From Candidatus Pacearchaeota archaeon (GTDB lineage: Archaea > Nanobdellota > Nanobdellia > Pacearchaeales > GW2011-AR1), in contig JBAZYG010000001.1 of NCBI GenBank assembly GCA_041659445.1, positions 381,624-445,623 on the forward strand: 64,000 nucleotides of DNA. Direction: 5' to 3'. Both the position numbers and the translations under genes were made by a program. This document shows, one piece after another, positions 5,719-57,244 of this stretch (position 1 is the stretch's first letter; every line of letters starts with the position of its first letter). A model generated the notes under the pieces. The model searched no databases. It had not been told where the DNA came from and saw only the letters and a list, made by a program, of their open reading frames with translations.

Positions 5719-6510
5719 ATGACAATCTACAAAATAAAATTTGGGCCAGCAGGATTGGGTTCTGTAAAAGATGCAGAAAAAACTTTGTTATTTTTAAAAG
5801 AAAATGGGCTTGAAGCATGTGAAATTGCATTTACTTATGGTGTTTATATAAATAAAGAAGAGGCTGAAAAAATTAGCAAGATTGCAAAAGATTTAGGAAT
5901 TTCATTATCAATTCATGCGCCTTATTGGATTAATTTAAATTCAGAAGAACCTGAAAAAATTGAAAAAAGCAAACAAAGAATTGTTAAATGTTTGGAAATT
6001 GGAACTTATTTGAATGCAAAATGTGTTGTTTTTCACGCAGGTTTTTATGGAAAAAAATCCAAAAAAGAAACTTATGAAAATATAAAAAATGAAATTTTGA
6101 AATTGCAAGAAATTAAAAAGAAAAATAAATACACGCCTGAACTTGCTCCTGAAACAATGGGAAAAATAAATGTTTTTGGAAGCATTGAAGAAATAGCATT
6201 GCTTGTTAAGGACACAAAATGCTTTGCATGTATTGATTTTGCACATATTCTGGCACGTTCCAATGGAGATTATAAATTTAAAGAAACATTAAGATTATTT
6301 GAAAATTTAAAAGAATTACATATTCATTTTTCTGGAATAGATTACGGAATTAAAGGAGAAAAAAATCATAAAAAAACTTCAGATGAAGAATTACATAAAT
6401 TAATTTCAAATCTTCCAAAAAACAAAAATACCGTCGTGATAAATGAATCTCCAGACATGATTAATGATTCTATAAATGCTTTAAAAATTTTTAAAAAATT
6501 AAATCAATGA
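5719..6510 (+). CDS. nfo: endonuclease IV-like AP endonuclease (xylose-isomerase-like TIM barrel, AP_endonuc_2 family)
   Basis: SIHAPYWINLNS resembles the Nfo HAPYLINL signature; VVFHAG and ETMGK metal-ligand-like segments; length 263 aa fits the family. Confidence 0.6.
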   Translation: MTIYKIKFGPAGLGSVKDAEKTLLFLKENGLEACEIAFTYGVYINKEEAEKISKIAKDLGISLSIHAPYWINLNSEEPEKIEKSKQRIVKCLEIGTYLNAKCVVFHAGFYGKKSKKETYENIKNEILKLQEIKKKNKYTPELAPETMGKINVFGSIEEIALLVKDTKCFACIDFAHILARSNGDYKFKETLRLFENLKELHIHFSGIDYGIKGEKNHKKTSDEELHKLISNLPKNKNTVVINESPDMINDSINALKIFKKLNQ

Positions 6511-20138: not shown

Positions 20139-21806
20139 TTAATTTTCGTCACAATTTGTTTCATACATTATTCCATCTGAAAAAGCCATCCAACAATTTC
20201 CAACTGAATAATTTCCTGTCAAACCAATATTATTTTGAGAAATTAAATTTCCTGAGAAAGAAATATCTCCGTTAACATCTAATTCACTTTGAGGAGTTGT
20301 TGTTCCAATTCCAACTTTTCCACCCATAATTGCCATTGTGTTTGCTTGACTTACAATAGTTCCTGATTGATCATTTAACCCTATTCCTACTGAATTACTT
20401 CCTGAAACTTCTATTCCTTTACCCATTGCGACAGAGTAAGGTCCTGATGCAATTGTATTTCTTCCAAAAGATGTTGAAGCTTCTCCAGATGAAACAGTCA
20501 CCAAACCCATTGCTGTTGAACCATAACCTGAAGAAATAGTTCCAGAGCCCATTGCTGTTGAAGCAGTTTCAGATGCAGTTGTAGAATATCCCATTGCTGT
20601 TGAATAATCTCCTAAAGCTTTTGTGTAACCCCCAGTTGACATTGAACTATAACCTGAAGATTCAGTGTATTCTCCCATTGCTGTTGAATAATATTGCGAA
20701 GATTCTGAACCATAACCTGTTGCTGTTGAATAATATCCTGATGAAATTGTTGCACCACCCATTGCAATTGCACCAATTTCAGAGGCTAATGTGCTTGGTC
20801 CTATTGCTGTTGAATATAAATTTGAAGCATTTGCATAATAACCCATAGACATTGAATGCTTATTTGGATTAATTAAAAGAGTATTTTCACCAACATAAAA
20901 ATTTCCTGTAAATTTCCCATCACCGATGACAGTCAATGCATTTTGGGGATTGTTTGTTTTTATTCCAACATTTCCATTATTATTTACAACAAATGCCTTT
21001 GAAGAATTTGCTCCTGGACTAAAATACAAACTTTCATCTCCTGCAGATGTAAAATCTATTTTAAAGATTTCTTTATTTCCAGAACGAATATTAAAACTAT
21101 CTGCTAAAATAAATGCAAGATATCCACCATTGTAATCACCCAAAATAAAATCATTTGTAGAATGAATACTTCCATTAACATCTAAATTATATTGTGGGTT
21201 GCTTGTTCCAATACCAACATTTCCCCCCATAATTGCCATTGTATTTGCTTGAGAAACATTCAAATTATTTTGATCATTCAATGCGATAGCAAAACTATAA
21301 TCTCCTCCTGCAATAATTTCTCTACCCATTGCTGTTGACAAAAACCCAGAAGCTGTTGTTGCAAAACCAGTCGCTGTTGAAGAAGCTCCTGAAGATTTTG
21401 TTAAATCACCTAATGCTATTGAAGAATCTCCTGAAGCATTTGCATAATGTCCTAATGCTATTGAAGAATCTCCTGAAGAGAATGCATGATTCCCAACAGC
21501 TACTGAAGAAGGCCCTAAAGCTGTTGATGAATATCCTAAAGCAACAGAATATAATCCCGAAGCTGTTGAGGTTCCTGATGAAATTGAATAGGTATTTGTA
21601 TTAACAAAAAAATCAGTTCCTCCAACACTGAAATTGTAATCTCCTAAAACAACATTATGATTTGAGCCAACGTAAGGAACATAACTTGAATTATAATTTG
21701 ATGAAATTAATTTATTATTTGTCTTTGCTAAAGAAAAAGAAGATAAACATAAAATCAAGATTAAAACAAAAACCATTCCAAAAAAATATTTATTTTTACA
21801 TTTCAT
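20139..21806 (-). CDS. secreted adhesin-like protein with Hep_Hag/YadA-head-type repeats and tail-fibre-like NVGIGT motifs
   Basis: Signal peptide MKCKNKYFFGMVFVLILILCLSSFSLA; repeated SSIALGHYANASGDSSIALG / SVALGYSSTALGPSSVAVG units (N/S-S-[IV]-A-[LV]-G periodicity); twice-repeated MAIMGG[NK]VGIGT..PQ..LDVNG motif. Confidence 0.6.
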   Translation of the reverse strand: MKCKNKYFFGMVFVLILILCLSSFSLAKTNNKLISSNYNSSYVPYVGSNHNVVLGDYNFSVGGTDFFVNTNTYSISSGTSTASGLYSVALGYSSTALGPSSVAVGNHAFSSGDSSIALGHYANASGDSSIALGDLTKSSGASSTATGFATTASGFLSTAMGREIIAGGDYSFAIALNDQNNLNVSQANTMAIMGGNVGIGTSNPQYNLDVNGSIHSTNDFILGDYNGGYLAFILADSFNIRSGNKEIFKIDFTSAGDESLYFSPGANSSKAFVVNNNGNVGIKTNNPQNALTVIGDGKFTGNFYVGENTLLINPNKHSMSMGYYANASNLYSTAIGPSTLASEIGAIAMGGATISSGYYSTATGYGSESSQYYSTAMGEYTESSGYSSMSTGGYTKALGDYSTAMGYSTTASETASTAMGSGTISSGYGSTAMGLVTVSSGEASTSFGRNTIASGPYSVAMGKGIEVSGSNSVGIGLNDQSGTIVSQANTMAIMGGKVGIGTTTPQSELDVNGDISFSGNLISQNNIGLTGNYSVGNCWMAFSDGIMYETNCDEN

Positions 21807-26269: not shown

Positions 26270-29095
26270 ATGTATGATTTTAAAGAAATTCAAAATAAAG
26301 CAAGAGAAATCTGGAAAATTCACGATAAAGAAATAAAAAAAGCTCTTCAAGATGATTCAAAAAAACCTTTGTTTAGTTTTTTAGAAGGCCCTCCGACAGC
26401 AAATGCTGCTCCAGGATTGCATCATTTAGAAGTCAGAACTTTTAAAGATGTTATTTGCAAATTCAAATTTATGAACGGTTTTTCTGTTCCAAGAAAAGGA
26501 GGGTGGGATTGCCATGGATTACCTGTTGAAGTTCAAGTTGAAAAAAAATTAGGATTAAATTCAAAAAAAGATATTTTAAATTATGGTGAAACTAAATTTA
26601 TACAAAATTGCAAAACAGATGTTTTCTCAAATATTAAAGAATGGAATAAATCAACAGAAGAATTAGGATATTGGATTGATTTAGAAAATCCGTACAAAAC
26701 TTTAGATAATAATTATATTGAAAGTGTTTGGTGGGCTTTGAGTGAATTGTATAAAAAAAATTTATTGTATGAAGGTTTTAAAGTCGTGCACTTTTGCCCG
26801 AGATGCCAAACTCCTTTGTCAAGTCATGAAGTTGCTCAAGGATATAAAGATGTTAAAGAAGAATCTGTTTATATTGCGTTCAAATTAAAAAATGAAAAAA
26901 ATTCCTATATTCTTGCATGGACAACAACACCTTGGACACTTCCAGGAAATGTTGCTTTAGCAATAGGTAATAAAATAGATTATGTAAAAGTTAAACTTTC
27001 AGACGGAGATGAACTGATTTTAGGAAAAGAGAAAGTAGATTTAATTAAAGGAAATTATAAAATTATTAAAGAATTCAAAAGAAAAGATTTAATTGGATTA
27101 GAATATGAACCTTTGTTTGATATTCCAGAATTGAAAAATAATAATTCTTATAAAATTATCAGTGCAGATTTTGTAACAACAGAAGATGGAACAGGAGTTG
27201 TTCATACTGCAGGAATGTATGGTGAAGATGATTACAATGTTTGCAAAGAAAATGATTTGCCTTTAATTCACACAGTTAATGAAGACGGGACGTTTAATGA
27301 ACTTGTTCCAAAATGGAAAGGTAAATTTGTAAAATCTGTTGAAAAAGAAATTATTGAAGATTTGAAAAAAAGACATTTACTTTTCAAAACTGAAAAATTC
27401 GAACACTCTTATCCTTTTTGCTGGAGATGTGACTCGCCTTTGTTATATTATGCTATTAAATCTTGGTTTATTGCAGTAACAAATGTTAAAGATAAATTAG
27501 TTCAATTAAATTCAAAAATAAATTGGTATCCAAACCATATTCAAGACGGGAGATTTGGAGTTTGGCTTGAAAATATTAAAGATTGGAACTTATCTAGATT
27601 TAAATTTTGGGGAACTCCCTTACCTGTTTGGCGATGCACTAATGAAGAATGTAATGAAGAAAAAATAATTGGAAGTGTTGAAGAACTAAAAAAATATTCA
27701 ACAAAACATTTTAATGAATATGATTTACATAGGCCTTGGATTGATGAAATAAAAATAAAATGCAAATGCGGAAAAGAAATGATTAGAGTTCCGGATGTTA
27801 TTGATTGCTGGTTTGATTCTGGAAGTGCTACTTTTGCACAATTCCATTACCCTTTCGAGAATAAAAAAGAATTTGAAAAAAGATTTCCATATGATTTTAT
27901 TTCAGAGGCTATTGATCAAACAAGAGGGTGGTTTTATACAATGCATGCAATTTCAACAATGTTATTTCAAGACATTTCTTATAAAAATGTAATTTGTGCT
28001 GGGCACATTGTCGATGAAAACGGAGAAAAAATGTCAAAATCAAAAGGAAATATTATAAAACCTGAAGAAATTTTTAATCAGGCAGGAATCGATGCTGTTA
28101 GGTTGCAATTTTGCACTACAGACCCAGGTAATTTCAAAAGATTTTCTTTGAACATGGTTAAAGAAAGTGTTCTTCCGTTTTTAACAATTTTAACAAATTC
28201 TCAAAAGTATTACTTGCAATTAGAAGATAAAAAGAACAACCTAAAAATTGAGGATAAATGGATTTTGAGCAAACTTAATTCTTTAATAAAAAGTACAACA
28301 GAAAATTTAGAAAATTATTCTTTAGACAAAGCTCTTCTTGAAATTATAGATTTTGTAACAAATGATTTATCTAGAGGATATATTCGATTAACTAGAGAAA
28401 GAAATGATACTAAGGAAATTATTAAAGAAATACTAGAAAAAGTTTCACTTCTTTTAGCACCTTATGCTCCTTATGTCAGCGAATATATTTATTCTGAATT
28501 TGAAAACAAACAATCTGTTCACTTATCAAACTGGCCAAAAATTGAAATAAAAGAAATTGACAAAGAACTTGAAAAAGAATTTGAAAATATTTTAAAAATA
28601 ATTGAAATGGGATTATCTGAAAGAGATAAATCCGGAATTGGATTGAAATGGCCATTAAATTTAGTTACAATTTATTGCAATAAAAAAGTTCCAGAAAAAT
28701 ATAATGAAATAATTCAAAATCAATTAAACGTAAAAAATATTGAATATGTTTTTAATAAAGAAGAAAACATCCAAGTAAAATTAGACACTCAAATAACTCC
28801 TGAACTTGAAGAAGAAGGTTATTGTCGTGAAATGTCTAGAAAAGTTCAAGCATTCAGAAAAGAAATTGGACTTGAAAAAACAGAGAAAATTGATTTAATT
28901 ATTTATTGCAGTAAAAAATTGAAGAAAATATTTGAAAAACAAAAGAATTTTATTTTGGATAGAACAAATTCAAAAAAAATTGAAATTACCGAAGGGGAAT
29001 CAAAAGAAAAAACAAATTTAATAACAGAATTTAAAATAAAACAAGAAATTGGAAACATCCAAATTGTTAGAGTAACTAGGAGTAACAAAGAATAG
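26270..29095 (+). CDS. ileS: isoleucyl-tRNA synthetase (class I)
   Basis: PPTANAAPGLHHLEVRT (HIGH-type motif), GGWDCHGLPVEVQVEKKLG (IleRS-type WDCHGLP block), KMSKSKGN (KMSKS), CP1 editing-region WTTTPWTLPGN, zinc-knuckle CPRC/CWRC pairs. Confidence 0.75.
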   Translation: MYDFKEIQNKAREIWKIHDKEIKKALQDDSKKPLFSFLEGPPTANAAPGLHHLEVRTFKDVICKFKFMNGFSVPRKGGWDCHGLPVEVQVEKKLGLNSKKDILNYGETKFIQNCKTDVFSNIKEWNKSTEELGYWIDLENPYKTLDNNYIESVWWALSELYKKNLLYEGFKVVHFCPRCQTPLSSHEVAQGYKDVKEESVYIAFKLKNEKNSYILAWTTTPWTLPGNVALAIGNKIDYVKVKLSDGDELILGKEKVDLIKGNYKIIKEFKRKDLIGLEYEPLFDIPELKNNNSYKIISADFVTTEDGTGVVHTAGMYGEDDYNVCKENDLPLIHTVNEDGTFNELVPKWKGKFVKSVEKEIIEDLKKRHLLFKTEKFEHSYPFCWRCDSPLLYYAIKSWFIAVTNVKDKLVQLNSKINWYPNHIQDGRFGVWLENIKDWNLSRFKFWGTPLPVWRCTNEECNEEKIIGSVEELKKYSTKHFNEYDLHRPWIDEIKIKCKCGKEMIRVPDVIDCWFDSGSATFAQFHYPFENKKEFEKRFPYDFISEAIDQTRGWFYTMHAISTMLFQDISYKNVICAGHIVDENGEKMSKSKGNIIKPEEIFNQAGIDAVRLQFCTTDPGNFKRFSLNMVKESVLPFLTILTNSQKYYLQLEDKKNNLKIEDKWILSKLNSLIKSTTENLENYSLDKALLEIIDFVTNDLSRGYIRLTRERNDTKEIIKEILEKVSLLLAPYAPYVSEYIYSEFENKQSVHLSNWPKIEIKEIDKELEKEFENILKIIEMGLSERDKSGIGLKWPLNLVTIYCNKKVPEKYNEIIQNQLNVKNIEYVFNKEENIQVKLDTQITPELEEEGYCREMSRKVQAFRKEIGLEKTEKIDLIIYCSKKLKKIFEKQKNFILDRTNSKKIEITEGESKEKTNLITEFKIKQEIGNIQIVRVTRSNKE

Positions 29096-29147: not shown

Positions 29148-29954
29148 ATGATTGTGAAAGAAGAATTTTTAAGCAGACTGAGAAAAATCTTTGATTTAAA
29201 TTTATACGAAGTAAAAGTTTGGGCAGCTTTGCTTTCAAGAGGAACTTCTACAGCTGGAGAACTAAGTAATATTTCTGATGTTCCAAGATCAAGAACTTAT
29301 GATATTTTAGAGAGTTTAGAAAAAAAAGGATTTATTGTAATGAAAGTTGGAAAACCAATTAAGTTTGTTGCATTAAAACCAGCAGAAGTTGTTGAAAGAG
29401 TTAAAAAAAATTTATTGGTTCAAGCTAAAGAAAGAACTCAAAGACTTGAAAAATTGAAGAACGATGAAGTTTTAGAAGAATTAAATTCTTTATTCACAAA
29501 AGGAGTTAAATTTGTTGAGCCTTCTGATTTATCTGGAAGTTTGAAAGGAAGACAAAATTTATACAATCATATGGATATGATGGTAAGAGATGCTGAAAAA
29601 ACAATTACACTTATTACAACTGCAGAAGGTTTGAATAGAAAACTTGAAGCTTTAATGCCAAGTTTAGATAAAGCTAAAAAAAGAGGAGTTAGAATAAGAA
29701 TTGCTGCTCCTATTGATAATAATAATTTAAAAGTTGCAAAAGAATTAAAAAAAGTTGCAGAAGTTAGAAATATGCAAAATATCAAAGCAAGATTTATGAT
29801 TATTGATAGTAATCAAGTTATGTTTATGCTTCTTGATGATGAAAAATTCCATCCAAATTATGATGTTGGAGTTTGGATTAATACTGATTTCTTTGCTCAA
29901 GCTTTAGAAAAAATGTTTGAACTTGCTTGGAAAGACATGAAACAAGTTAAGTAA
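29148..29954 (+). CDS. TrmB-family transcriptional regulator
   Basis: N-terminal winged HTH LYEVKVWAALLSRGTSTAGELSNISDVPRSRTYDILESLEKKGFI typical of archaeal TrmB; C-terminal effector-like domain. Confidence 0.7.
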   Translation: MIVKEEFLSRLRKIFDLNLYEVKVWAALLSRGTSTAGELSNISDVPRSRTYDILESLEKKGFIVMKVGKPIKFVALKPAEVVERVKKNLLVQAKERTQRLEKLKNDEVLEELNSLFTKGVKFVEPSDLSGSLKGRQNLYNHMDMMVRDAEKTITLITTAEGLNRKLEALMPSLDKAKKRGVRIRIAAPIDNNNLKVAKELKKVAEVRNMQNIKARFMIIDSNQVMFMLLDDEKFHPNYDVGVWINTDFFAQALEKMFELAWKDMKQVK

Positions 29955-29981
29955 TTTTAAATATTAATAAAAGGAGGTAAG

Positions 29982-30383
29982 ATGAAAAATAAATATATTC
30001 CAGTAGGTGTTAAAGTAATTTCTATTTTGTACTATATTGGAGTTGTGGGATTGGTTGCATTAGCAATTCTCTCATTTATTGGAACTAAAGCAATAGGATT
30101 AATTATGCCAGTACCAGAGCTTTTAACTTCAAGCATATTAATTGTAATGGGCATCATTTTCCTTGCATTTGCTGTTTTGAGTTTTTTTATAGGATATGGG
30201 TTATGGAAATCTCAAAAATGGGCTAGAATAGTTGCAATAATTTTTGCAATAATCGGAGTGATAATGTATATTATCTCACTTGTTGGACAATTTACTGTAT
30301 CACCTTTAATCATGCTAATAATTGATTCTGCAATTGCAGGATACCTTTTATTTGCTAAAGAAGTAAAAAAAGCATTTGCTTAA
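29982..30383 (+). CDS. hypothetical membrane protein (133 aa)
   Basis: Four TM helices. Confidence 0.4.
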   Translation: MKNKYIPVGVKVISILYYIGVVGLVALAILSFIGTKAIGLIMPVPELLTSSILIVMGIIFLAFAVLSFFIGYGLWKSQKWARIVAIIFAIIGVIMYIISLVGQFTVSPLIMLIIDSAIAGYLLFAKEVKKAFA

Positions 30384-30453
30384 ACTTCTTTTTAATTTTT
30401 TCTTATTTTTTCATTATAATAATTTTTATAAACTAACTAAATTATGAAAAGTT

Positions 30454-30777
30454 ATGAAAGACAAAAATTTTAAAGAAAATAATTTAATAGAAAAACTACC
30501 TATAAGAAATTTTATACTTCTTTTAGCTTCAATATCTTTTTATGGGTTGGCAATATTTTCTCAAAAAAAAGAATGCAAAGAAAATGAATTACAACAAATT
30601 AGTTCTAATCTTAATCATGTAAATTATGAAATGGATAGTTTAAAAAATTTAAAATTAAATTATCAAACAAATATAAACTCAGCAAATGTTTTTGGTGAAG
30701 AAATTGAAGCATGGAATTTAGAATTAAAAAAACTTCAAAATAAAAAAGATTCTTTAGAAAATTTAACTAGAAATTAA
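30454..30777 (+). CDS. hypothetical protein with an N-terminal TM and coiled coil (107 aa)
   Basis: Complete ORF; no motif recognised. Confidence 0.35.
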   Translation: MKDKNFKENNLIEKLPIRNFILLLASISFYGLAIFSQKKECKENELQQISSNLNHVNYEMDSLKNLKLNYQTNINSANVFGEEIEAWNLELKKLQNKKDSLENLTRN

Positions 30778-30825
30778 TTCTCTTAAATATAAATTCTTAT
30801 AAACTATAATTACTAAAATTATTTA

Positions 30826-31107
30826 ATGAAGGAAATAAGTCTTAAAGAAGCTCAAGAAAAAGAATTTAAATTATTGTGCACAGATTCTTTTAACGCGGAT
30901 TATTTGGAAGAAAATGGGGAAGAAAAAGCTTTAACTTTAGAACATCCGAATGCAACACATTACACTTTTTCAGGACAGGAGATTTTTGAAGATAAAAAAA
31001 TCATAGGAAGAAGAATGGAAAAAATAGGTAGAACTACTGTATTTGTTCCAAAATGGGAATACGAATTAAAAGAAAGAAATTATTATTTAATTTGGTCTGA
31101 ACATTAA
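30826..31107 (+). CDS. hypothetical protein (93 aa)
   Basis: Complete ORF; no motif recognised. Confidence 0.35.
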   Translation: MKEISLKEAQEKEFKLLCTDSFNADYLEENGEEKALTLEHPNATHYTFSGQEIFEDKKIIGRRMEKIGRTTVFVPKWEYELKERNYYLIWSEH

Positions 31108-31168
31108 TTCTTTTATCTAGTTGATTTATGTGATTAAAATATAGGTAATTAATCATCTTGAAAAATAA

Positions 31169-31753
31169 CTAAAGAATTTGCCCATTAAAATTAGAATTAA
31201 AATCTTTAACAATTTGATTATCTTCATCAAAAAAATCAACTATAATAATTGCTTTTTCATAAGCACGATAATACCTTTTATCAGTAACTTTCACATAATT
31301 TACTTTGGATGCAACAAACCTCACTTGCCGATCATTATCGTCTTCAAAAAGTCCGCCTTCTTTTAGGGAATCAATTATGTTCTTTGTATAGTTATCTACA
31401 TCCCTATCTTTGTGGGTATTAACTAAAAGATATTTTATTAAAATTTGTATTGGTTTGTTTTTTATTTCTTCGCAGATTGATTTTGTATTTTTTGATTTTT
31501 TTAATTTATCAACAATTATTTTTCTCATTCTCTTTCCTGCTTTTGTTTGAAAACTTGCAGGATATGCATCTGGCATTAACCACCAAAGGTGTTTCCCCTT
31601 TGGACAAGAATCAAAAGAATCTTTATGTATTATTGAAATTCCTCTTGAAGAAACTCCTTTTTTGAGGATATTCATCTTAACTTTTTCACTTCTTCTTTTT
31701 GGAATTTTTACATTGGGAAAATTACTCATAACTAATTCTCTCATAGTTACCAT
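31169..31753 (-). CDS. RusA-like Holliday-junction resolvase (phage-type endodeoxyribonuclease)
   Basis: THKDRDVDNYTKNIIDSLKEGGLFEDDNDRQV parallels the RusA core [31 protein letters not shown] (D-x-D-N...K...D...DD.QV); start is 1 nt after the upstream HNH gene stop. Confidence 0.55.
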   Translation of the reverse strand: MVTMRELVMSNFPNVKIPKRRSEKVKMNILKKGVSSRGISIIHKDSFDSCPKGKHLWWLMPDAYPASFQTKAGKRMRKIIVDKLKKSKNTKSICEEIKNKPIQILIKYLLVNTHKDRDVDNYTKNIIDSLKEGGLFEDDNDRQVRFVASKVNYVKVTDKRYYRAYEKAIIIVDFFDEDNQIVKDFNSNFNGQIL

Positions 31754-31754
31754 T

Positions 31755-32441
31755 TTATCTAATTTTCATGTGTGTTTTTTTGTGACAAACCCCACAGAGA
31801 ACGACTAAATTATTCACTTGATTATTTGAAGAATCTTCATCTTTATGATGAATGTGAAGACCTTCTGTTTTCCCACAAACAGCACATTCATTATTAAATT
31901 TGCCAAAGACCATTTCCTTTTCATCATTTGTTAAAAATTTTCTTTTAGCCTTAACTTTCCCATAAATCTTTTTCTCAGCTTCTTCTCTTATTTTTCTTTT
32001 TTCTTGTCTTTCCAAAATTTTATTTGATTCTATTTTTATAAGTTCATCACTTACAAGTTCATTTATTGCTTTTTCAATATTATAATCTTTATTTATTACC
32101 TTCTTTATCACATTTTCTTTATTAAAATAGGAAATTCTTTGCTTAGATCTTTTTAGCTTCAAATATTCTTTTGCCTTAACAACTAATTGTTCTGGAGCAA
32201 ATTTATCTTCTTGATGCCAATCTAAATGAGGCTCTTTTGATTCATTAGAAAGTTTGATGTAATTAATTATCTCTTTAATTGCTTTCATTTCTTTTTTACT
32301 TCTTTGGTTTCTTTCTTTTATTTCTATTTCTTTTAAATAACAAGATTTGCATTTACCAGAAAACATATAACTATACTCTTCAAACTTTGTATAACATACT
32401 GAACAATTATAAAACCCCATTAAATAAAAAAGAAAGAACAA
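31755..32441 (-). CDS. zinc-ribbon plus HNH endonuclease protein
   Basis: N-terminal CSVCYTKF...CKSCY (Cys4 ribbon); C-terminal CAVCGKTEGLHIHHKDEDSSNNQVNNLVVLCGVCHKKTH (HNH with a Cys4 zinc site); K/E-rich middle. Confidence 0.6.
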   Translation of the reverse strand: MFFLFYLMGFYNCSVCYTKFEEYSYMFSGKCKSCYLKEIEIKERNQRSKKEMKAIKEIINYIKLSNESKEPHLDWHQEDKFAPEQLVVKAKEYLKLKRSKQRISYFNKENVIKKVINKDYNIEKAINELVSDELIKIESNKILERQEKRKIREEAEKKIYGKVKAKRKFLTNDEKEMVFGKFNNECAVCGKTEGLHIHHKDEDSSNNQVNNLVVLCGVCHKKTHMKIR

Positions 32442-32483
32442 TATTTAATATTTTCTAATTTGTAAAAAATCCAATAATTAGAA

Positions 32484-34196
32484 TCACATTTCTTCTAAAA
32501 CATCAATTCCAATTAAATAAAGTCCAGATTTTATTACATCCCTAAAAGTTTTAACAATATTCAATCTGAAAAACTCTTTATCTGAACCAATAACAGGACA
32601 AGCATGATAAAATTCATTAAACAATTGAGATAATTCATAAACATAATTTGAGATTAAACTTGGATTTAAATCATTTGCAGATTTTGAGATTATCAACGGA
32701 AATTCAGACATTTTTTTTATGACAAGAAATTCATTTGGTTCAATTTTATCAATTTCTTTTTTTGCATTTTGTTCGATTTTTGCTTTTTTCAAAATTGAAC
32801 TTGCACGAGCATAAGAATACTGAATGTATGGTCCTGTATCTCCTTCAAAATTTATTGAATTTTTTGGGTCAAAAACCATATTTTTTCGAATATCTGTTTT
32901 AAGCAGAATATATTTTATTGCTGCTAAAGAAATTATTAAACTTCTTTTTTCAAGTTGAACATTTGAAAGTTTTGCCCTTTCAATTAATTCTTTTTTAACA
33001 AGATTCTGAACTTTTTCAATTAAATCATCTGCGTCAACAACTGTTCCTTCACGAGATTTCATTTTTCCTTCTGGCAAAAAAACCATTCCATAAGAAAGGT
33101 GATTTAATTTATCTTTTGATGTAATTCCTAATTTTTCAAGTAATTCAAAAAGAACATTAAAATGATAATCTTGTTCGTTTCCAACAACATAAATTAATTC
33201 GTCTAGTTTATATTTTTCAAAACGAGATTTTGCTAAATACAAATCCTGAGTAATATAAATTGAAGTTCCGTCTGCTCTTAACAAAACTTTTTCTCCTAAA
33301 TTCTTTTTTCGCAAATCATAAATAATTGCTCCTGATTTGTCTTTTTTAAATATTCCTTTGTTCAACCCATCAAAAACAATTTCTTTACCTTTTTTGTAAA
33401 TTTTACTTTCATAATCTTCAACTTGATGTTTAATTCCAAATTTAGAATAAGTTTTTTCAAAACCTTTTAATGCCCAGTTATTCATTTTTTTCCAAAGAGC
33501 CAATGTTTTTTTATCTCCTTCTTCATATTTTTGTAAAAGTCGATGAGATAAAATTTCTAAATCATTATCTGTTTTTGATTTTTCATTGAACTTAACATAA
33601 AACTCTCCAACAAAATGATCTCCTTTTATTTTTCCTGGGACCTTATTTTTTCCAAACTTAGAATATGCAGCCATTGATTTACAAATGTGAATTCCTCTAT
33701 CATTGTTTAAATTTGCCCTTATTACTTTATATCCTGAAAATTCTAAAATTCTTGAAACACTTTCTCCAATTGCCATATTTCTTAAATGTCCCAAATGTAA
33801 CGGCTTGTTTGTATTTGGAGAAGGAAATTCAACCATTATTGTTTTTTTGTCTTTTTCAGTATTCAAAATCTTTCCAAATTTTTCTTTTTTTTGTAAAATT
33901 CCTTGAAGAAAATTGAAAGAAAAATTTAATTTATTCACGAAAAAATTAATATATGGTCCAACTGCTTGGATATCTTCAAAAATATTTTTATCAAATTCAA
34001 TTTTTTGTCTTACATTAACTGCAATTTCATGAGGAGCAGTTTTCAGAATTTTTGCAAGAAAAAAACAAGGAAATGCATAATCACCTAATTCATAATTTTT
34101 TGGAATTTCAATAATTTCTTCAATTTCAGAATCTTTTAATTTTAAATCTAATTCCTTAAATGCATTTTGAAGAATTTTTACAACCTCTGATTTCAT
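32484..34196 (-). CDS. argS: arginyl-tRNA synthetase
   Basis: EFPSPNTNKPLHLGHLRNMAIGESVSRILEFSGYKV (ArgRS HIGH region), N-terminal Add-1-type domain, C-terminal anticodon-binding DALR-like region; 570 aa. Confidence 0.85.
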   Translation of the reverse strand: MKSEVVKILQNAFKELDLKLKDSEIEEIIEIPKNYELGDYAFPCFFLAKILKTAPHEIAVNVRQKIEFDKNIFEDIQAVGPYINFFVNKLNFSFNFLQGILQKKEKFGKILNTEKDKKTIMVEFPSPNTNKPLHLGHLRNMAIGESVSRILEFSGYKVIRANLNNDRGIHICKSMAAYSKFGKNKVPGKIKGDHFVGEFYVKFNEKSKTDNDLEILSHRLLQKYEEGDKKTLALWKKMNNWALKGFEKTYSKFGIKHQVEDYESKIYKKGKEIVFDGLNKGIFKKDKSGAIIYDLRKKNLGEKVLLRADGTSIYITQDLYLAKSRFEKYKLDELIYVVGNEQDYHFNVLFELLEKLGITSKDKLNHLSYGMVFLPEGKMKSREGTVVDADDLIEKVQNLVKKELIERAKLSNVQLEKRSLIISLAAIKYILLKTDIRKNMVFDPKNSINFEGDTGPYIQYSYARASSILKKAKIEQNAKKEIDKIEPNEFLVIKKMSEFPLIISKSANDLNPSLISNYVYELSQLFNEFYHACPVIGSDKEFFRLNIVKTFRDVIKSGLYLIGIDVLEEM

Positions 34197-39546: not shown

Positions 39547-41310
39547 ATGGAAGCAAAAAAATACCTTTTTCCAGTAATGATTTTATTAAGTTTATTTTTG
39601 ATTTGCTTTGTTAGTTCTGCCACAGAATTAACAATGTTTCATGTAAATTCTGTAGAAGATAATTCTAGTTTTATAGATGACTCTTATGCAATGGATATGC
39701 AAAATGATTTCTTATATATTGGGGGCAATGTTCAAGGCTTTCAAATTGTTGATGTTTCTGATTCTGCAAATCCAGTTGTAACAGGATACTTGAATACTTT
39801 AAACGGAATAATTGATTTAAAAGTCCAAGGAAATTATGTTTATGCTGTTTCTCTTACTAGTCCTAGTGACTTGAATATAATTGACATTTCTGATTCTGCA
39901 AATCCTGTAATTACAAACACAGTTACTTTAAACGGACAAGCTTCTGGAATAGATGTTGATTCTTTAGAAAGTTATGCTTATGTAGTTTATTCTGATAATT
40001 CAAATTTGGAAATAGTAAATCTTAGTGATAATTCAATAATAACTCCTTCATATGATTTAACAACAACTGCAAATGATATTTTAGTTGATGGAAATTATGC
40101 TTATGTTGTTTCAAGTGCTTCTGAATTAAAAATTTTAGATATTACTGATTTATCAAGCATTACTCAAGTTTCAATTTTAACAGATGACGGCACAACAGCA
40201 TTGAATGGGGCTTGGTCAATTTTCAAAGAAGGAAATTACTTATATATTTTATCTTCAGAGGGTTTTGAAATAATTAACGTCTCTGACCCTTTAACTCCAA
40301 CTTTAATGAAAGCAGTTTACAAAACAGATGCAATTTTAAACAACCACGATGTTAACGGAATTTTTGTAAAAAATAATATGGTCTATCTTTCATTAACCTC
40401 TCCAACACAAGGAATTGTAGAAGAAATTTCTCTTTTAGGAATCCTTACTGTTGTTCCCCCATCACAAATTTTTTTAATAATTGATTCAAGCACATCAAAT
40501 AACATTTTATTAGATACTCCTCGTGAAATAATTGTAAATGGAAATTACGCTTTTGTAACATCCTCAGATTTAATATTAACAAAAACTGGATTGGAAGTTA
40601 TAGGTATTGATGATTATACTCCTGTAATTGAAATTATTGCTCCAACTAATGCTACAACAATTTACCATAATGTTACAGCAGGTGCATTGAGTTTTGAATT
40701 TAAAGCAAAAATAACAGATGATTTTTCTGGAATAAAAAATGTAATATTTTCATTAAAAACACCAAATGGAGTGATTACAAATTATCCTTTAACTTCTCTT
40801 GGAAATGATGAATATTCTGCAATTGTTTCATTGACTGCTTATGGAACTTATGAAGCAAGTTTTGAAGCAAATGATTTTGCAACAAGAGGAAAAACAGAAT
40901 ATACTACATTTACTATATCTGAACCTGTTGTATCTTCAGGTGGTGGTGGCGGTGGTGGAGGTTCTTGTTCATATAATATAAATTATGATTGGAAATGTTC
41001 TAGTTGGGGTGAATGTGTTGATGGAACTCAAACAAGAACTTGTAATAATTTAAATAATTGTGGAAGCACTTATGGAAGACCAGACACAGAACAAACATGT
41101 ATTATTGAAATAATTCCTGAAACTGTGAACAACGCAACTGAAACAAATACTGCCGAGGGTGGAAGAGGATTAACAGGTGCAGTTATTGGTGGAACTTCAA
41201 GAGTATTTAGTTCTCCTTGGTTATACATACCGTTATTAGTTTTTGCAATTCTAATCGCTGGGTGGTTGTTGTTAGGATTATTCAGAAAGAAAGACAAAAA
41301 GAAAAAATAA
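39547..41310 (+). CDS. secreted cell-surface protein with LVIVD-like beta-propeller repeats, a Gly8 linker and a C-terminal TM anchor
   Basis: Signal peptide; recurring GNY[AVL]Y[VI][VL]S and I[IV]D[IV]SD..NP repeat units; GGGGGGGGS linker; C-terminal PWLYIPLLVFAILIAGWLLLGLF plus RKKDKKKK. Confidence 0.5.
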   Translation: MEAKKYLFPVMILLSLFLICFVSSATELTMFHVNSVEDNSSFIDDSYAMDMQNDFLYIGGNVQGFQIVDVSDSANPVVTGYLNTLNGIIDLKVQGNYVYAVSLTSPSDLNIIDISDSANPVITNTVTLNGQASGIDVDSLESYAYVVYSDNSNLEIVNLSDNSIITPSYDLTTTANDILVDGNYAYVVSSASELKILDITDLSSITQVSILTDDGTTALNGAWSIFKEGNYLYILSSEGFEIINVSDPLTPTLMKAVYKTDAILNNHDVNGIFVKNNMVYLSLTSPTQGIVEEISLLGILTVVPPSQIFLIIDSSTSNNILLDTPREIIVNGNYAFVTSSDLILTKTGLEVIGIDDYTPVIEIIAPTNATTIYHNVTAGALSFEFKAKITDDFSGIKNVIFSLKTPNGVITNYPLTSLGNDEYSAIVSLTAYGTYEASFEANDFATRGKTEYTTFTISEPVVSSGGGGGGGGSCSYNINYDWKCSSWGECVDGTQTRTCNNLNNCGSTYGRPDTEQTCIIEIIPETVNNATETNTAEGGRGLTGAVIGGTSRVFSSPWLYIPLLVFAILIAGWLLLGLFRKKDKKKK

Positions 41311-54712: not shown

Positions 54713-57244
54713 TTAATTGTTAATTGAATTCACTTTAGATATTTTTTGCTCAAATAATTTTTTCTCAGAAGATGAAACTTCTAATATATACATTCCATTT
54801 GCTAAATTAGACAAATCAAATTCAACATCTTTATTTCCAGGATAAATTTCTTCTTTAAAATAATCTACTAATCTCCCAGACATTTCATAAACTTCTGCAT
54901 AAATTTTTTCTGGTTTTGAAACTTCATAATTAAATTTTATTTTTCCTGAAGCAGATGGATTTGGATAAACTTTAAATTTGTCCTCGAGAGTTTTTGGTTT
55001 TTCAGGAACTCCAATTGAAATATCTTCAGTAATATATTGAGAAGTATCTGGTGCAGGAGTTCCACAAATATCATATGAAGACCAATGTCTTTCCCATAAC
55101 CTATAAACATTTGGAATTTCTTCAATTAATTCATCTGTATAATTAACTTCTGGAACAACATTTGAGATAGTATCGTCTGCAACTGCCCAACCTAAATCCT
55201 CTGGAGCCATACTTTCTCCTGTTTTTATTGTTGTGTCTGCTGGAACAAATGCCCAATAAGGAGGTTCTGTTTCAACGACGCTGACATGTTGATTTTGCTG
55301 AATTGAATTATAACAAATTGTATCATTTGCATTATGAGCCCAATCAAATTCATAATTATAATGTTGACAATCAGTTGAATCTGGATTTTGGGTTGAATTT
55401 ATTTTAGATGGATCTTCTTCGACAATTACTTCAATTCCAGTTGGATTAAATGCAGTAGGTAATCCACCTGTTTGTGAAGTAGTTATATTCGGAGAATAAT
55501 TTATTTGTGCATTTGCTGGAAAAGATGCCCATTGATGAATATCTAAATAAACGTCTCTAGAATAAGTTGTATCTGTAAAATTACCAGTTGGGTCTTGAGC
55601 ATGATCTGTAAATTGTTGAGTGAAATTATAATAATTGCATGAGTCAGGACTTAAACCTTGCGTTGAAGTTTCAGAAATTCTTGTTACAATTTCGTGTCCT
55701 GAATTATCGTCGGCATCTGCTAAAGGAACAGGTATTGCTTGGGTAAATGGAACTGGACCTGAAACATAAATATTAGTTATTTCTGGATTTTCTGTATCTC
55801 TTACTGAAATTAATTGTGCAGGCTTATTTGGGAAATGCACATTATCTATTGTTCCATAAGTTGTATCAATTAAAACATTTTCAAGAGATTTTCCAAACCA
55901 GTCTCGATAAATGTCAAAATTGTAATAAGTTGAATCCCAAACTGTTCCTGATTGATTTGAACTATCTGAATAAATTGTATATGACCAAGGAGCATTTCCT
56001 GTAACTTCTCCTGTATTTTCTGGAGCTGTTAAATTTGAATTTTGAGAATATTCAATGTCGATGTTTGAAGGCATTTGCCCTCCGACATGAACGTGATTGC
56101 ATTCTTCTGGTTTATTAACAATTAAATCAGGATGTTGCCAAATTAATGTTGCATTTCCATTTTGCAAATCAAATTTAGCAATTGTATTTAAAGTATACAC
56201 GTATTGGCCCAAATTTGAATTATAATAATAAGCATATTTTTTTATATGGGCATAACTATCAGGATGCATGCTTGGACTTCCTAGTGTAACTATTTGATCA
56301 TTTTGAGGTTCAACAAAAACCCAATCATTAAAATTTGTCGAACTATTTCCTTTTAAAAATGCATTAATTGAATGTAAAATATTTGGAGAAGTATACATTG
56401 TGCTAACAATATAAAATGGTTCATTAAATCTTGCATTTTGAGTTGTATCATAAATTGAAAAATCTATACCAGAATTTTCAATATTTTCAATTCCAGATTT
56501 ATTTATTTGAGTTTGCATAGAATATTGATTACAATCCCAATTTGGTCCTGGAGCATGAAGATTTGTTAAATCAATTGCTTGAGTTTTTTGGTCCCAAAAT
56601 TCTTTTTCAGAAGATGTTAAAAAATTCCAATGACTAGGCAAATAAGGAATTTCATCTGTTAAGTAATTGTAAATTAATTGAGAATCTAATGTATTTGTAA
56701 CTTGATCTCCATTTATATCTGTTCTATCGTTGGAAGTTCCAGAGATTATTAAATTATAATCTTGCCAATTTAAAACATTATCGTCATTTGCATCACCAGA
56801 ACCATAATAACTTAAATCAAAATTTCCAGCATTTAATAAATTTGGTTGAATAAATGGATTCAAATATTGATCCCCATAAAAAGAATTTACATTGTCTGTT
56901 GAATTTGAATTTTCATATTCTTTGTTGATGATTTCAGAAGCTCTTTCAGAATAATAAACTCCTTCACTAGGAGAATAAGCTAAATTTTTATCAATTGCTT
57001 CAGATAGAGTTATATAATCAATAATTTTTTTTTCAAGATTTAAATTTACCTCTTTTAAATTATCAAAATTAATTTCAGGAACATTAACTGAATTAATTAC
57101 TGGAACTTTAAATTCTTCTGAAACTAAGGATTTTTCTTTATAAGGAATATTTTCATTTTGAGAATATGTAAAACTAGGAAGTACAGAAATTCCTGTTGCA
57201 ACTAATCCAATACCAATATTTTTTAATTTATTTGCTTTTTTCAT
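54713..57244 (-). CDS. large secreted protein with dockerin-like calcium-binding repeats and a C-terminal T9SS-type (Por_Secre_tail-like) sorting domain
   Basis: Signal peptide MKKANKLKNIGIGLVATGISVLPSFTYSQ; GDANDDNVLNWQDYNLII and DINGDQVTNTLDSQLIYNYL (dockerin-type D-x-N-x-D pairs); C-terminal about 85 aa KVYPNPSASGKIKFNYEVSKPEKIYAEVYEMSGRLVDYFKEEIYPGNKDVEFDLSNLANGMYILEVSSSEKKLFEQKISKV matches the T9SS CTD pattern. Confidence 0.55.
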   Translation of the reverse strand: MKKANKLKNIGIGLVATGISVLPSFTYSQNENIPYKEKSLVSEEFKVPVINSVNVPEINFDNLKEVNLNLEKKIIDYITLSEAIDKNLAYSPSEGVYYSERASEIINKEYENSNSTDNVNSFYGDQYLNPFIQPNLLNAGNFDLSYYGSGDANDDNVLNWQDYNLIISGTSNDRTDINGDQVTNTLDSQLIYNYLTDEIPYLPSHWNFLTSSEKEFWDQKTQAIDLTNLHAPGPNWDCNQYSMQTQINKSGIENIENSGIDFSIYDTTQNARFNEPFYIVSTMYTSPNILHSINAFLKGNSSTNFNDWVFVEPQNDQIVTLGSPSMHPDSYAHIKKYAYYYNSNLGQYVYTLNTIAKFDLQNGNATLIWQHPDLIVNKPEECNHVHVGGQMPSNIDIEYSQNSNLTAPENTGEVTGNAPWSYTIYSDSSNQSGTVWDSTYYNFDIYRDWFGKSLENVLIDTTYGTIDNVHFPNKPAQLISVRDTENPEITNIYVSGPVPFTQAIPVPLADADDNSGHEIVTRISETSTQGLSPDSCNYYNFTQQFTDHAQDPTGNFTDTTYSRDVYLDIHQWASFPANAQINYSPNITTSQTGGLPTAFNPTGIEVIVEEDPSKINSTQNPDSTDCQHYNYEFDWAHNANDTICYNSIQQNQHVSVVETEPPYWAFVPADTTIKTGESMAPEDLGWAVADDTISNVVPEVNYTDELIEEIPNVYRLWERHWSSYDICGTPAPDTSQYITEDISIGVPEKPKTLEDKFKVYPNPSASGKIKFNYEVSKPEKIYAEVYEMSGRLVDYFKEEIYPGNKDVEFDLSNLANGMYILEVSSSEKKLFEQKISKVNSINN

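What the first reader, a model, noticed from the sequence alone, without database searches (positions are those of the whole stretch)
30454..32441. Phage-like module: zinc-ribbon/HNH endonuclease followed 1 nt later by a RusA-type Holliday-junction resolvase, plus two small unknown genes
Seen in sequence. The minus-strand pair 31755..32441 (Cys4 ribbon plus HNH, CAVCGKTEGLHIHHKDED...NNLVVLCGVCHKKTH) and 31169..31753 (DRDVDNYTKNIIDSLKEGGLFEDDNDRQV, matching the RusA catalytic D-x-D-N...K...D...DD core) are operonic. Two small co-directional unknown genes (30454..30777, 30826..31107) sit next to them. Established: RusA and HNH are hallmark genes of tailed-phage and provirus replication/packaging modules and are rare as cellular housekeeping genes in archaea. 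Inference: a remnant or cargo of an integrated virus or plasmid, inserted between a trmB-like regulator and argS. No integrase is visible in the window.
Basis: partly seen in the sequence, partly recalled or inferred. Interest (0 to 1): 0.55.

Follow-up and report, generated by a model that had tools for sequence, protein, structure and literature searches.

The report
Mobile HNH–RusA nuclease gene pair
A small archaeon (Pacearchaeota) carries a two-gene nuclease unit, a DNA-cutting HNH enzyme followed by a RusA-type DNA-junction cutter, in a highly variable chromosome slot. Related copies of the RusA gene usually sit next to or inside restriction systems, so this looks like mobile defence-type cargo and not a leftover virus.

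Summary

The two small + strand genes converge on the pair and have no homologues in billions of proteins.

Nineteen related genomes keep argS…trmB-ileS. The gap between argS and trmB ranges from 268 bp to 9 kb, and none holds RusA or HNH.

The HNH→RusA unit, with the same TAA-N-ATG junction, recurs in four other lineages in unrelated contexts. Other members of this DPANN-specific RusA clade lie between hsdS and hsdM, between type III mod and res, after Fic/DUF2283, or directly after a tRNA-Leu-adjacent integrase.

No viral hallmark gene, integrase, att repeat or compositional anomaly was found in the window. Neither protein has a relative in 50,697 phage genomes, and IMG/VR gave only four weak HNH-core matches.

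Verdict: a mobile accessory nuclease cassette from a restriction/defence-island gene pool. The "cargo of a mobile element" reading is supported; the "phage module" reading is not. Its function is inferred, not shown.

The parts
31755..32420 (-). HNH (His-Me finger) endonuclease gene, 221 aa from the ATG at 32420. The mechanical ORF runs on to a TTG at 32441 (228 aa).
32340..32405 (-). N-terminal CxxC-x14-CxxC motif, a putative zinc ribbon (residues 13-34 in 228-aa numbering).
   Evidence: Sequence pattern. The same motif is present in L010, L099 and L112 and in many family members. The model is poorly confident here.
31770..31886 (-). HNH catalytic core: CAVCG…GLHIHHKD…NN…NL..LCGVCHKKTH. It carries the second Cys4 zinc site and the His/Asn/His residues.
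   Evidence: Invariant C186, C189, H198, H199, N206, N207, N211 and C216 in 24 homologues; C219 and H220 are nearly invariant. Pfam matches residues 186-224.
31754..31754 (-). Single-nucleotide spacer between the HNH stop (TAA) and the RusA ATG.
   Evidence: The same TAA-N-ATG junction is conserved at DNA level in five lineages.
31169..31753 (-). RusA-family junction endonuclease gene, 194 aa. It has a basic N-terminal extension of about 55 aa that E. coli RusA lacks.
31325..31405 (-). RusA catalytic core, RDVDNYTKNIIDSL…FEDDNDRQV. D118, D120, N121, K124 and D138/D139 correspond to E. coli D70, D72, N73, K76 and D90/D91.
   Evidence: Invariant columns in 20 homologues. HMM alignment to 1q8r.
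32421..32483 (-). 63-bp AT-rich spacer between the argS stop and the HNH ATG. It may hold the cassette's own archaeal promoter (inferred only).
   Evidence: Sequence read. No archaeal promoter tool was available.
31108..31168 (.). Convergent intergenic region between RusA and orf93, with T-runs on both strands. A likely termination zone (inferred).
30826..31107 (+). orf93, an acidic soluble ORFan converging on RusA.
   Evidence: Only itself in 5.8 billion proteins. No Pfam hit and no significant PHROG, PADLOC or NCBIfam hit. Absent from all RusA and HNH loci of relatives.
30454..30777 (+). orf107, an ORFan with an N-terminal hydrophobic helix and a coiled-coil-like tail. Its GC is 19%.
   Evidence: Only itself plus one coiled-coil noise hit in 1.84 billion representatives. 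The Rz-like spanin hit is weak and not significant (E 0.027). GC.
29982..30383 (+). DUF2127 small membrane protein. It also lies inside the variable argS–trmB gap; in relatives its paralogues sit on the other side of argS.
29148..29954 (+). TrmB-family regulator, the conserved left anchor of the variable slot.
   Evidence: Pfam TrmB 3e-19. It is 77-88% identical in 19 relatives and always followed by ileS.
32484..34196 (-). Arginyl-tRNA synthetase, the conserved right anchor of the variable slot.

Best explanation
The block is an accessory, horizontally mobile two-gene nuclease operon, HNH endonuclease followed by a RusA-family four-way-junction endonuclease. It belongs to the mobilome and defence-island gene pool of DPANN archaea. 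Here it sits, with two lineage-specific orphan genes, in a hypervariable slot between argS and trmB-ileS of a Pacearchaeota chromosome.

Shown:
- Both proteins keep complete catalytic residue sets and the expected folds.
- The stop-1 nt-start junction is homologous in five lineages, so the two genes travel and are probably translated as a unit.
- The RusA clade is rare (21 clusters in 5.8 billion proteins).
- In at least 9 of 14 lineages it is adjacent to, or inside, operons for restriction-type nucleases: HNH, type I hsdS/hsdM, or type III mod/res. In one more lineage it follows a Fic/DUF2283 pair.

Inferred mechanism: the HNH enzyme nicks or breaks DNA at its ββα-metal site, with its variable N-terminal part setting target choice. 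The RusA dimer then cuts the four-way junctions that arise when such breaks are processed by recombination. This would either finish destruction of branched or recombining invader DNA, or resolve repair intermediates when the host's own polyploid chromosome is hit. RusA would thus act as a restriction-linked accessory gene, not as a virus replication gene.
For: Families and folds.

Variable slot: the gap is 268-8953 bp in 19 relatives and never holds these genes. The relatives' gap genes are absent from the window.

HNH→RusA with a 1-nt gap in unrelated contexts:
- L010/L011 next to surface-protein genes
- L099 after a Doc-like pair
- L106
- L112
The junction is conserved at DNA level, and these RusAs form one clade.

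Restriction-modification and related links:
- L102: type III Mod→RusA→Res, with 2-nt and 0-nt gaps
- L110 and L103: hsdS→RusA with a 4-nt overlap
- L007: hsdR-hsdS-KilA-N×2-RusA-118aa-hsdM
- L110 ends in an hsdM start
- L002: tRNA-Leu | integrase | RusA … type I R-M
- L107: Fic-DUF2283→RusA

Control: 1.09 Mb of ArgRS-anchored loci plus the window gives no hit to these R-M components or this HNH family apart from the window's own gene.

HNH family mobility: an identical protein sits in two different contexts beside IS200-type and IS240-type transposase genes. Another member overlaps a MazE-like antitoxin gene.
Against: - No defence phenotype or biochemistry exists for any member.
- The RusA protein matches no PADLOC model.
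- The window itself has no R-M, methylase or antitoxin gene next to the pair.
- Two lineages carry RusA among ordinary genes: L003-6, conserved in more than 20 contigs, and L109. This fits a plain cellular resolvase role.
- The sample is small, at 14 lineages, many on short contigs.
- The control is anchored on a housekeeping gene, so it under-represents islands.
- The HNH and RusA trees are not congruent, though they are NJ trees on short sequences.
Confidence: 0.55

Rival explanations
1. Selfish homing-endonuclease reading. The HNH gene is a free-standing homing endonuclease that lodged immediately upstream of RusA and spreads by cutting HNH-less alleles. RusA is merely the neighbouring gene, or it helps resolve the gene-conversion intermediate.
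For: - The HNH family is larger than the RusA clade (68 vs 21 clusters), and most members are not RusA-linked.
- An identical HNH sits in two contexts.
- L106 has two HNH genes, of which only the RusA-adjacent one belongs to this family; that one is truncated to 115 aa.
- An unlinked HNH nests inside the RusA-linked ones.
- L002, nested in the HNH-linked RusA clade, lacks HNH but keeps about 14 nt resembling the HNH 3' end before the RusA ATG.
- PADLOC also gives a weak 'homing endonuclease' hit.
Against: - The junction is homologous in all five pairs, which points to one origin and co-inheritance, not repeated homing.
- The pair moves together into unrelated loci, not into RusA alleles at a fixed site.
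- This reading does not explain why HNH-less RusA relatives sit inside type I and type III R-M operons.
Confidence: 0.2
2. Remnant of an integrated virus or plasmid. HNH and RusA would be what is left of a replication/packaging module after the rest decayed.
For: - RusA and HNH are common phage genes.
- BFVD structural neighbours are all phage RusA-like proteins.
- Relatives sit beside an integrase at a tRNA, and beside KilA-N and Fic/Doc genes, which are typical mobile-element genes.
- The two ORFans fit fast-evolving viral cargo.
Against: - No virion or terminase gene was found in the window or in any of the 14 RusA contexts.
- The window has no integrase or att repeats.
- Phage genomes and IMG/VR give no sequence relative, apart from four weak HNH-core matches in IMG/VR.
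- GC equals the host's.
- Identity to phage RusA is only 11-19%.
- DPANN viruses are poorly sampled, so absence is weak evidence.
Confidence: 0.12
3. Ordinary cellular DNA-repair genes. RusA serves as the cell's Holliday-junction resolvase, beside or in place of Hjc, with HNH as a structure-specific partner nuclease.
For: - Lone RusA sits among housekeeping genes and is conserved in more than 20 contigs (L003-6).
- L109 is near a DNA ligase gene and L106 near an ERCC4 nuclease gene.
- Composition is host-like.
Against: - Distribution is very patchy: 21 clusters, and the genes are absent from the syntenic slot of 19 relatives.
- Genomic context changes in almost every lineage.
- Linkage to R-M, TA and integrase genes is tight.
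Confidence: 0.13

Closest known systems
E. coli RusA (DLP12 prophage; PDB 1q8r) and phage RusA-like resolvases (Pfam PF05866, phrog_34)
   Different: - A basic, partly helical N-terminal extension of about 55 aa (conserved 'IPKRRSEKVKMNILK').
- Only about 20% identity.
- No tblastn match in any sequenced phage.
- Found in DPANN archaeal chromosomes, operonic with HNH or R-M genes instead of phage nin/replication modules.
McrA-like / Cap5 / GVE2-type HNH nucleases (His-Me finger with a Cys4 zinc site)
   Different: - No sequence-level PDB match.
- No recognisable modification-reading domain.
- The N-terminal half is a zinc ribbon plus a small α/β domain that varies between homologues.
- A long conserved basic helix precedes the HNH core.
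Restriction-linked ORFs inside type I R-M loci (e.g. PrrC and the Campylobacter 'rlo' genes). This comparison is from my own knowledge and was not tested here.
   Same: An accessory gene is inserted between hsd genes with overlapping or abutting reading frames (L007, L103, L110). A second restriction type (type III, L102) carries the same guest.
   Different: The guest here is a junction resolvase, which I could not find described in this role. In the window its partner is a lone HNH nuclease, not a full R-M system.
Phage early/late junction in cos-type siphoviruses (RusA … HNH – terS – terL). This comparison is from my own knowledge.
   Same: It has the same two protein families in proximity.
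   Different: The order is reversed (HNH→RusA). There are no terminase or structural genes, and the two genes are fused into one translational unit.

Membership tests
RusA family (PF05866) | Profile match at or above the curated threshold | tested here: inconclusive
   The window protein scores 22.3 bits against a threshold of 22.8. All 20 clade members hit PF05866, best E 1.5e-8. The clade profile's only PDB hits are RusA.
RusA family (PF05866) | RusA α/β fold | tested here: met
RusA family (PF05866) | Catalytic Asp triad and Lys (E. coli D70, D72, D91, K76) | tested here: met
   D120, K124, D138 and D139 are invariant and D118 is near-invariant in 20 sequences. They align to the E. coli residues.
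RusA family (PF05866) | Homodimer that cleaves Holliday junctions in a metal-dependent way | not testable with these tools
   This needs biochemistry or ruv-suppression genetics.
HNH / His-Me finger endonucleases (PF01844) | Profile match at or above the curated threshold | tested here: met
   PF01844 scores 22.2 bits against 21.4. HNH_3 is below its threshold (20.8 vs 24.8). Twenty-eight PHROG families match, most of them named HNH endonuclease.
HNH / His-Me finger endonucleases (PF01844) | ββα-metal fold with conserved His/Asn/His and zinc cysteines | tested here: met
Type IV (McrA-like) modification-dependent restriction enzyme | A domain that reads modified bases, joined to the HNH domain | tested here: inconclusive
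Integrated provirus / prophage remnant | Virion or packaging hallmark genes nearby | tested here: not met
   Neighbours are IleRS, TrmB, DUF2127, ArgRS, a methyltransferase and TrxR. The other large window ORFs scanned look like ordinary cellular or cell-surface genes. None of the 14 RusA contexts has virion genes.
Integrated provirus / prophage remnant | Integrase and flanking att direct repeats | tested here: not met
   Only short AT-rich chance repeats were found. The window has no integrase-like or transposase-like sequence. A relative, L002, does have tRNA-Leu plus an integrase.
Integrated provirus / prophage remnant | Relatives in virus genome collections | tested here: not met
   IMG/VR holds no RusA relative and four weak HNH-core matches. 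INPHARED phages give no tblastn hit.
Defence-island / restriction-linked accessory gene | Non-random adjacency to known defence genes across lineages | tested here: met
   Five lineages have HNH→RusA and five have R-M within or next to the operon. One more follows a Fic/DUF2283 pair, and a Doc-like pair precedes one of the HNH pairs. That is out of 14 lineages. The 1.09-Mb control has no such genes. The sample is small.
Defence-island / restriction-linked accessory gene | Protection against viruses or plasmids | not testable with these tools
   No experimental system is available. RusA is absent from PADLOC models.
Free-standing HNH homing endonuclease | Presence/absence polymorphism at a fixed site, with a cleavable empty allele | tested here: inconclusive
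   An identical HNH sits in two contexts. A possible 14-nt HNH 3' remnant lies before RusA in L002. The junction is of single origin.

The most novel reading that the evidence does not exclude
A DPANN-specific clade of RusA-type Holliday-junction resolvases, with a basic N-terminal extension, is a previously unrecognised accessory subunit of restriction systems. It is built into type I (hsdS-RusA-hsdM) and type III (mod-RusA-res) operons and, as here, fused translationally to a lone HNH nuclease. It would couple DNA breakage to cleavage of the branched recombination or replication intermediates that follow. That would make HNH→RusA a minimal two-nuclease immunity or addiction module.
Probability: 0.3. 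Interest if true: 0.65.

Novelty: new variant of a known kind. Interest (0 to 1): 0.42.

Why it matters
Each gene alone is an ordinary member of a known nuclease family. The new element is the company they keep. A junction resolvase is repeatedly wired into restriction operons and into a conserved HNH→RusA unit in ultra-small archaea, whose defence and repair repertoires are poorly known.

If the link is functional, it would add a structure-specific nuclease to the parts list of restriction systems. It would also give a testable idea of how cells with reduced genomes either survive self-restriction or attack the branched DNA of invaders.

If the link is only co-hitchhiking in islands, the locus is still a clean example of a hypervariable integration slot between two housekeeping anchors in Pacearchaeota and Woesearchaeota.

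Tried and rejected
- Flanking direct or inverted repeats around 29955..32483: only AT-rich chance matches.
- attR search in L002: none within the 12 kb held.
- GC and skew anomaly: none. Block genes are 26-29% GC against 27% for the window; only orf107 is low, at 19%.
- tRNA or Rfam elements at the block: none; the nearest tRNA is more than 5 kb away.
- Viral origin: three IMG/VR scans and two tblastn searches of phage genomes gave nothing useful. Plasmids gave none.
- Homologues of orf93 and orf107: none. A conserved small partner gene downstream of RusA across loci: none.
- Spanin or holin reading of orf107 and DUF2127: the PHROG hits are not significant (E 0.013-0.027), so I rejected it.
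- Csn2 hit of orf107 in PADLOC (E 0.0013): coiled-coil noise, rejected.
- IscB hit of HNH in NCBIfam (30.7 bits against a cut-off of 175): HNH core only, rejected.
- The metagenome scan for more RusA loci returned only 7, so the census stays small.
- Literature searches for RusA with DPANN, R-M, hsdS or defence islands found nothing on this association.
- The bacterial promoter/terminator scanner was not used, because the organism is an archaeon.
Full report
**What is in the sequence**

The window is about 27% GC throughout. It carries archaeal housekeeping genes, including SMC, RNase HII, IleRS and ArgRS. A protein identical to one of its ORFs is deposited as a hypothetical protein of a Candidatus Pacearchaeota MAG, on a 486,529-bp contig.

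On the minus strand, argS (32484..34196) is followed by the HNH gene and then the RusA-like gene (31169..31753).

The junction reads AGA TAA A ATG, so exactly one nucleotide separates the two genes.

The HNH ORF's TTG start at 32441 is probably not used. Gene callers and all full-length homologues begin at the ATG at 32420, giving MGFYNC… and 221 aa. This leaves a 63-bp AT-rich spacer after argS.

The two small genes, orf107 (30454..30777) and orf93 (30826..31107), are on the plus strand and converge on RusA.

**Are the family assignments right?**

HNH:
- Pfam PF01844 scores 22.2 bits against a gathering score of 21.4.
- Twenty-eight PHROG families match, most of them named HNH endonuclease, the best at 1.8e-10.
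- In 24 homologues the residues C186, C189, H198, H199, N206, N207, N211 and C216 are invariant.
- An AlphaFold model (pLDDT 81) shows the ββα core.
- It has no sequence-level match in the PDB.

RusA:
- The window protein alone is just below Pfam's threshold, at 22.3 against 22.8 bits.
- All 20 clade members hit PF05866, with a best E-value of 1.5e-8.
- A profile of the clade finds only E. coli RusA in the PDB. It aligns RDxDNxxK…DD onto D70, D72, N73, K76 and D90-D91.
- These residues are invariant or nearly so in the clade.
- The protein adds a conserved, basic N-terminal extension of about 55 residues that E. coli RusA lacks.

So both the observation and the domain calls stand.

**The small genes**

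orf93 finds only itself among 5.8 billion proteins. orf107 finds only itself, plus one coiled-coil noise hit, among 1.84 billion representatives. No library gives a significant family for either.

They are not found beside RusA or HNH in any relative. They are lineage-specific orphans of the same variable slot, and nothing ties them functionally to the nuclease pair.

**Is the block an insertion?**

I used ArgRS to fetch 80 loci from species-representative genomes. Nineteen Woesearchaeota, Pacearchaeota or Nanoarchaeota genomes keep the arrangement argS → … ← trmB ← ileS. Their ArgRS is 56-65% identical and their TrmB 77-88% identical.

- The distance between argS and trmB ranges from 268 bp to 8953 bp; in the window it is 2529 bp.
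- In relatives the gap holds a 70-aa membrane protein, a Dus-like TIM-barrel protein, small Cys-rich membrane proteins or giant surface proteins.
- It never holds RusA, HNH, orf93 or orf107.
- Those gap genes are absent from the window.

The slot is therefore a hotspot of gene turnover between two conserved anchors, and its content in the window is unique.

The relatives are distant, so no clean empty site can be shown. No flanking repeats, integrase, transposase or compositional signal marks an insertion event.

**Where else do the genes occur?**

The RusA clade is rare, at 21 clusters, all from DPANN-type metagenomic sequences. I could inspect fourteen lineages.

HNH→RusA, always with a 1-nt gap:

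| Locus | Context |
|---|---|
| Window / L001 | argS upstream |
| L010 / L011 | beside surface-protein genes |
| L099 | after a Doc-like toxin pair |
| L106 | RusA-adjacent HNH truncated to 115 aa |
| L112 | 1622-bp contig |

The DNA around the junction aligns in all five (TTAGATAA-N-ATG). Their RusAs form one clade. The unit therefore arose once and has since moved between unrelated genomic neighbourhoods.

The other lineages:

| Locus | Arrangement |
|---|---|
| L102 | RusA between type III mod and res, gaps of 2 and 0 nt (PADLOC MTase_III and REase_III) |
| L110, L103 | RusA overlaps the end of hsdS by 4 nt |
| L007 | hsdR-hsdS-KilA-N-KilA-N-RusA-118aa-hsdM; L110 likewise ends with an hsdM start |
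| L002 | tRNA-Leu(UAA), tyrosine integrase, RusA, a PD-(D/E)XK/NucS-like gene, then a type I system orthologous to L007's |
| L107 | RusA overlaps a DUF2283 gene that follows Fic |
| L003-6 | lone RusA among housekeeping genes |
| L109 | RusA between FtsX and ABC-transporter genes |
| L105 | RusA after an unidentified 85-aa ORF on a 1.9-kb contig |

As a crude control I searched 1.09 Mb of ArgRS-anchored loci plus the window. It has no match to these Hsd, Mod or Res proteins or to this HNH family, apart from the window's own gene.

The HNH family (68 clusters) is itself mobile:
- One identical protein sits in two different contexts beside IS200-type and IS240-type transposase genes.
- Another member overlaps a MazE-like antitoxin gene.

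**Is it viral?**

I found nothing that says so.
- None of the 14 contexts shows virion or terminase genes.
- IMG/VR holds no RusA relative and only four weak HNH-core matches.
- Neither protein has a tblastn match in 50,697 phage genomes or, for RusA, 72,556 plasmids.
- Structural neighbours among viral proteins are phage RusA-like proteins at only 11-19% identity.

DPANN viruses are poorly sampled, so a viral reservoir cannot be excluded. L002 shows that the gene can ride in a tRNA-integrated island.

**Interpretation**

The best-supported reading is a mobile accessory nuclease operon from the DPANN restriction/defence-island gene pool, parked in a hypervariable slot.

Shown:
- intact catalytic sites and folds;
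- a co-inherited, translationally coupled HNH→RusA unit;
- repeated tight linkage of the RusA clade to restriction-type nucleases.

Inferred: HNH makes the breaks, with its variable N-terminal region choosing targets. RusA then cuts the four-way junctions that arise when those breaks are processed. This would either complete the destruction of recombining invader DNA or resolve repair intermediates on the host's own chromosome.

Rivals, with my estimates:
- a selfish HNH homing endonuclease sitting next to a passenger RusA (about 0.2);
- a decayed provirus or plasmid (about 0.12);
- plain cellular repair genes (about 0.13).

The homing idea is helped by HNH mobility and by a possible 14-nt HNH remnant before the RusA of L002. 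It is weakened by the single-origin junction and by the R-M-embedded RusAs that lack HNH.

**Novelty**

Each protein is a new, divergent member of a known family. I found no description of a conserved HNH→RusA cassette, or of a RusA-type resolvase embedded in type I and type III restriction operons, in the searchable literature. That search does not cover subscription journals.

I rate it a new variant of a known kind, of moderate interest. The case rests on 14 lineages and no experiments.

Noticed in passing
L102:3863-9417: A type III restriction-modification operon has a RusA-like gene (5920-6504) wedged between mod (684 aa) and res (970 aa), with gaps of 2 and 0 nt.
   Followed up: partly
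L007:4599-12367; L110:1836-4533; L103:11-1128: These type I R-M loci carry RusA between hsdS and hsdM. L007 also has two KilA-N genes inside the operon. In L110 and L103 the RusA start overlaps the hsdS stop by 4 nt.
   Followed up: partly
L002:8552-20585: tRNA-Leu(UAA) is followed by a tyrosine integrase, RusA, a PD-(D/E)XK/NucS-like gene and a type I R-M system. It looks like a tRNA-integrated defence island. The far end (attR) lies outside the 20 kb held.
   Followed up: partly
window 26270..29095 (ileS) compared with L015-L076: IleRS at the same syntenic position falls into two classes: 60-67% identity in six relatives and 38-45% in the others. The adjacent TrmB stays at 77-88%. This suggests in-place replacement of ileS by a different IleRS type.
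   Followed up: no
window 32484..34196 (argS) compared with L052-L086: The archaeal ArgRS is 51-54% identical to ArgRS of Fibrobacterota and Chitinispirillia bacteria. That is as close as, or closer than, some Woesearchaeota (47-50%). It may reflect inter-domain transfer of argS.
   Followed up: no
argS–trmB gap in L017, L021, L025, L026: The same slot in relatives grows to 5-9 kb and holds giant secreted or surface proteins (484-1352 aa) plus a conserved Dus-like TIM-barrel gene and small Cys-rich membrane proteins.
   Followed up: partly
L012:8001-8591 vs L013:8001-8591: An identical 196-aa HNH protein (P0037) occurs in two unrelated contexts. One is beside a Cas4-like PD-(D/E)XK gene, an SNase gene and an IS200-type transposase gene. 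The other is near an IS240-type DDE transposase gene.
   Followed up: partly
L113:5808-6750 / L114:5868-6750: A MazE/AbrB-like antitoxin gene overlaps the start of an HNH homologue (P0081). This hints that some family members are the toxin half of a toxin-antitoxin pair.
   Followed up: no
window 20139..21806, 54713..57244, 39547..41310: Three archaeal ORFs carry domains better known from bacteria. These are YadA head repeats (555 aa), a Por/T9SS C-terminal sorting domain (843 aa) and LVIVD repeats (587 aa).
   Followed up: no
window 30454..30777: orf107 has only 19% GC against 27% for the window, and it has no relatives anywhere.
   Followed up: partly
L106:174-767 and 1809-2156: Two unrelated HNH genes lie within 2 kb of one RusA gene, with a LigT-like 2',5' RNA ligase gene between them. 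The one adjacent to RusA is a 115-aa truncated form.
   Followed up: no
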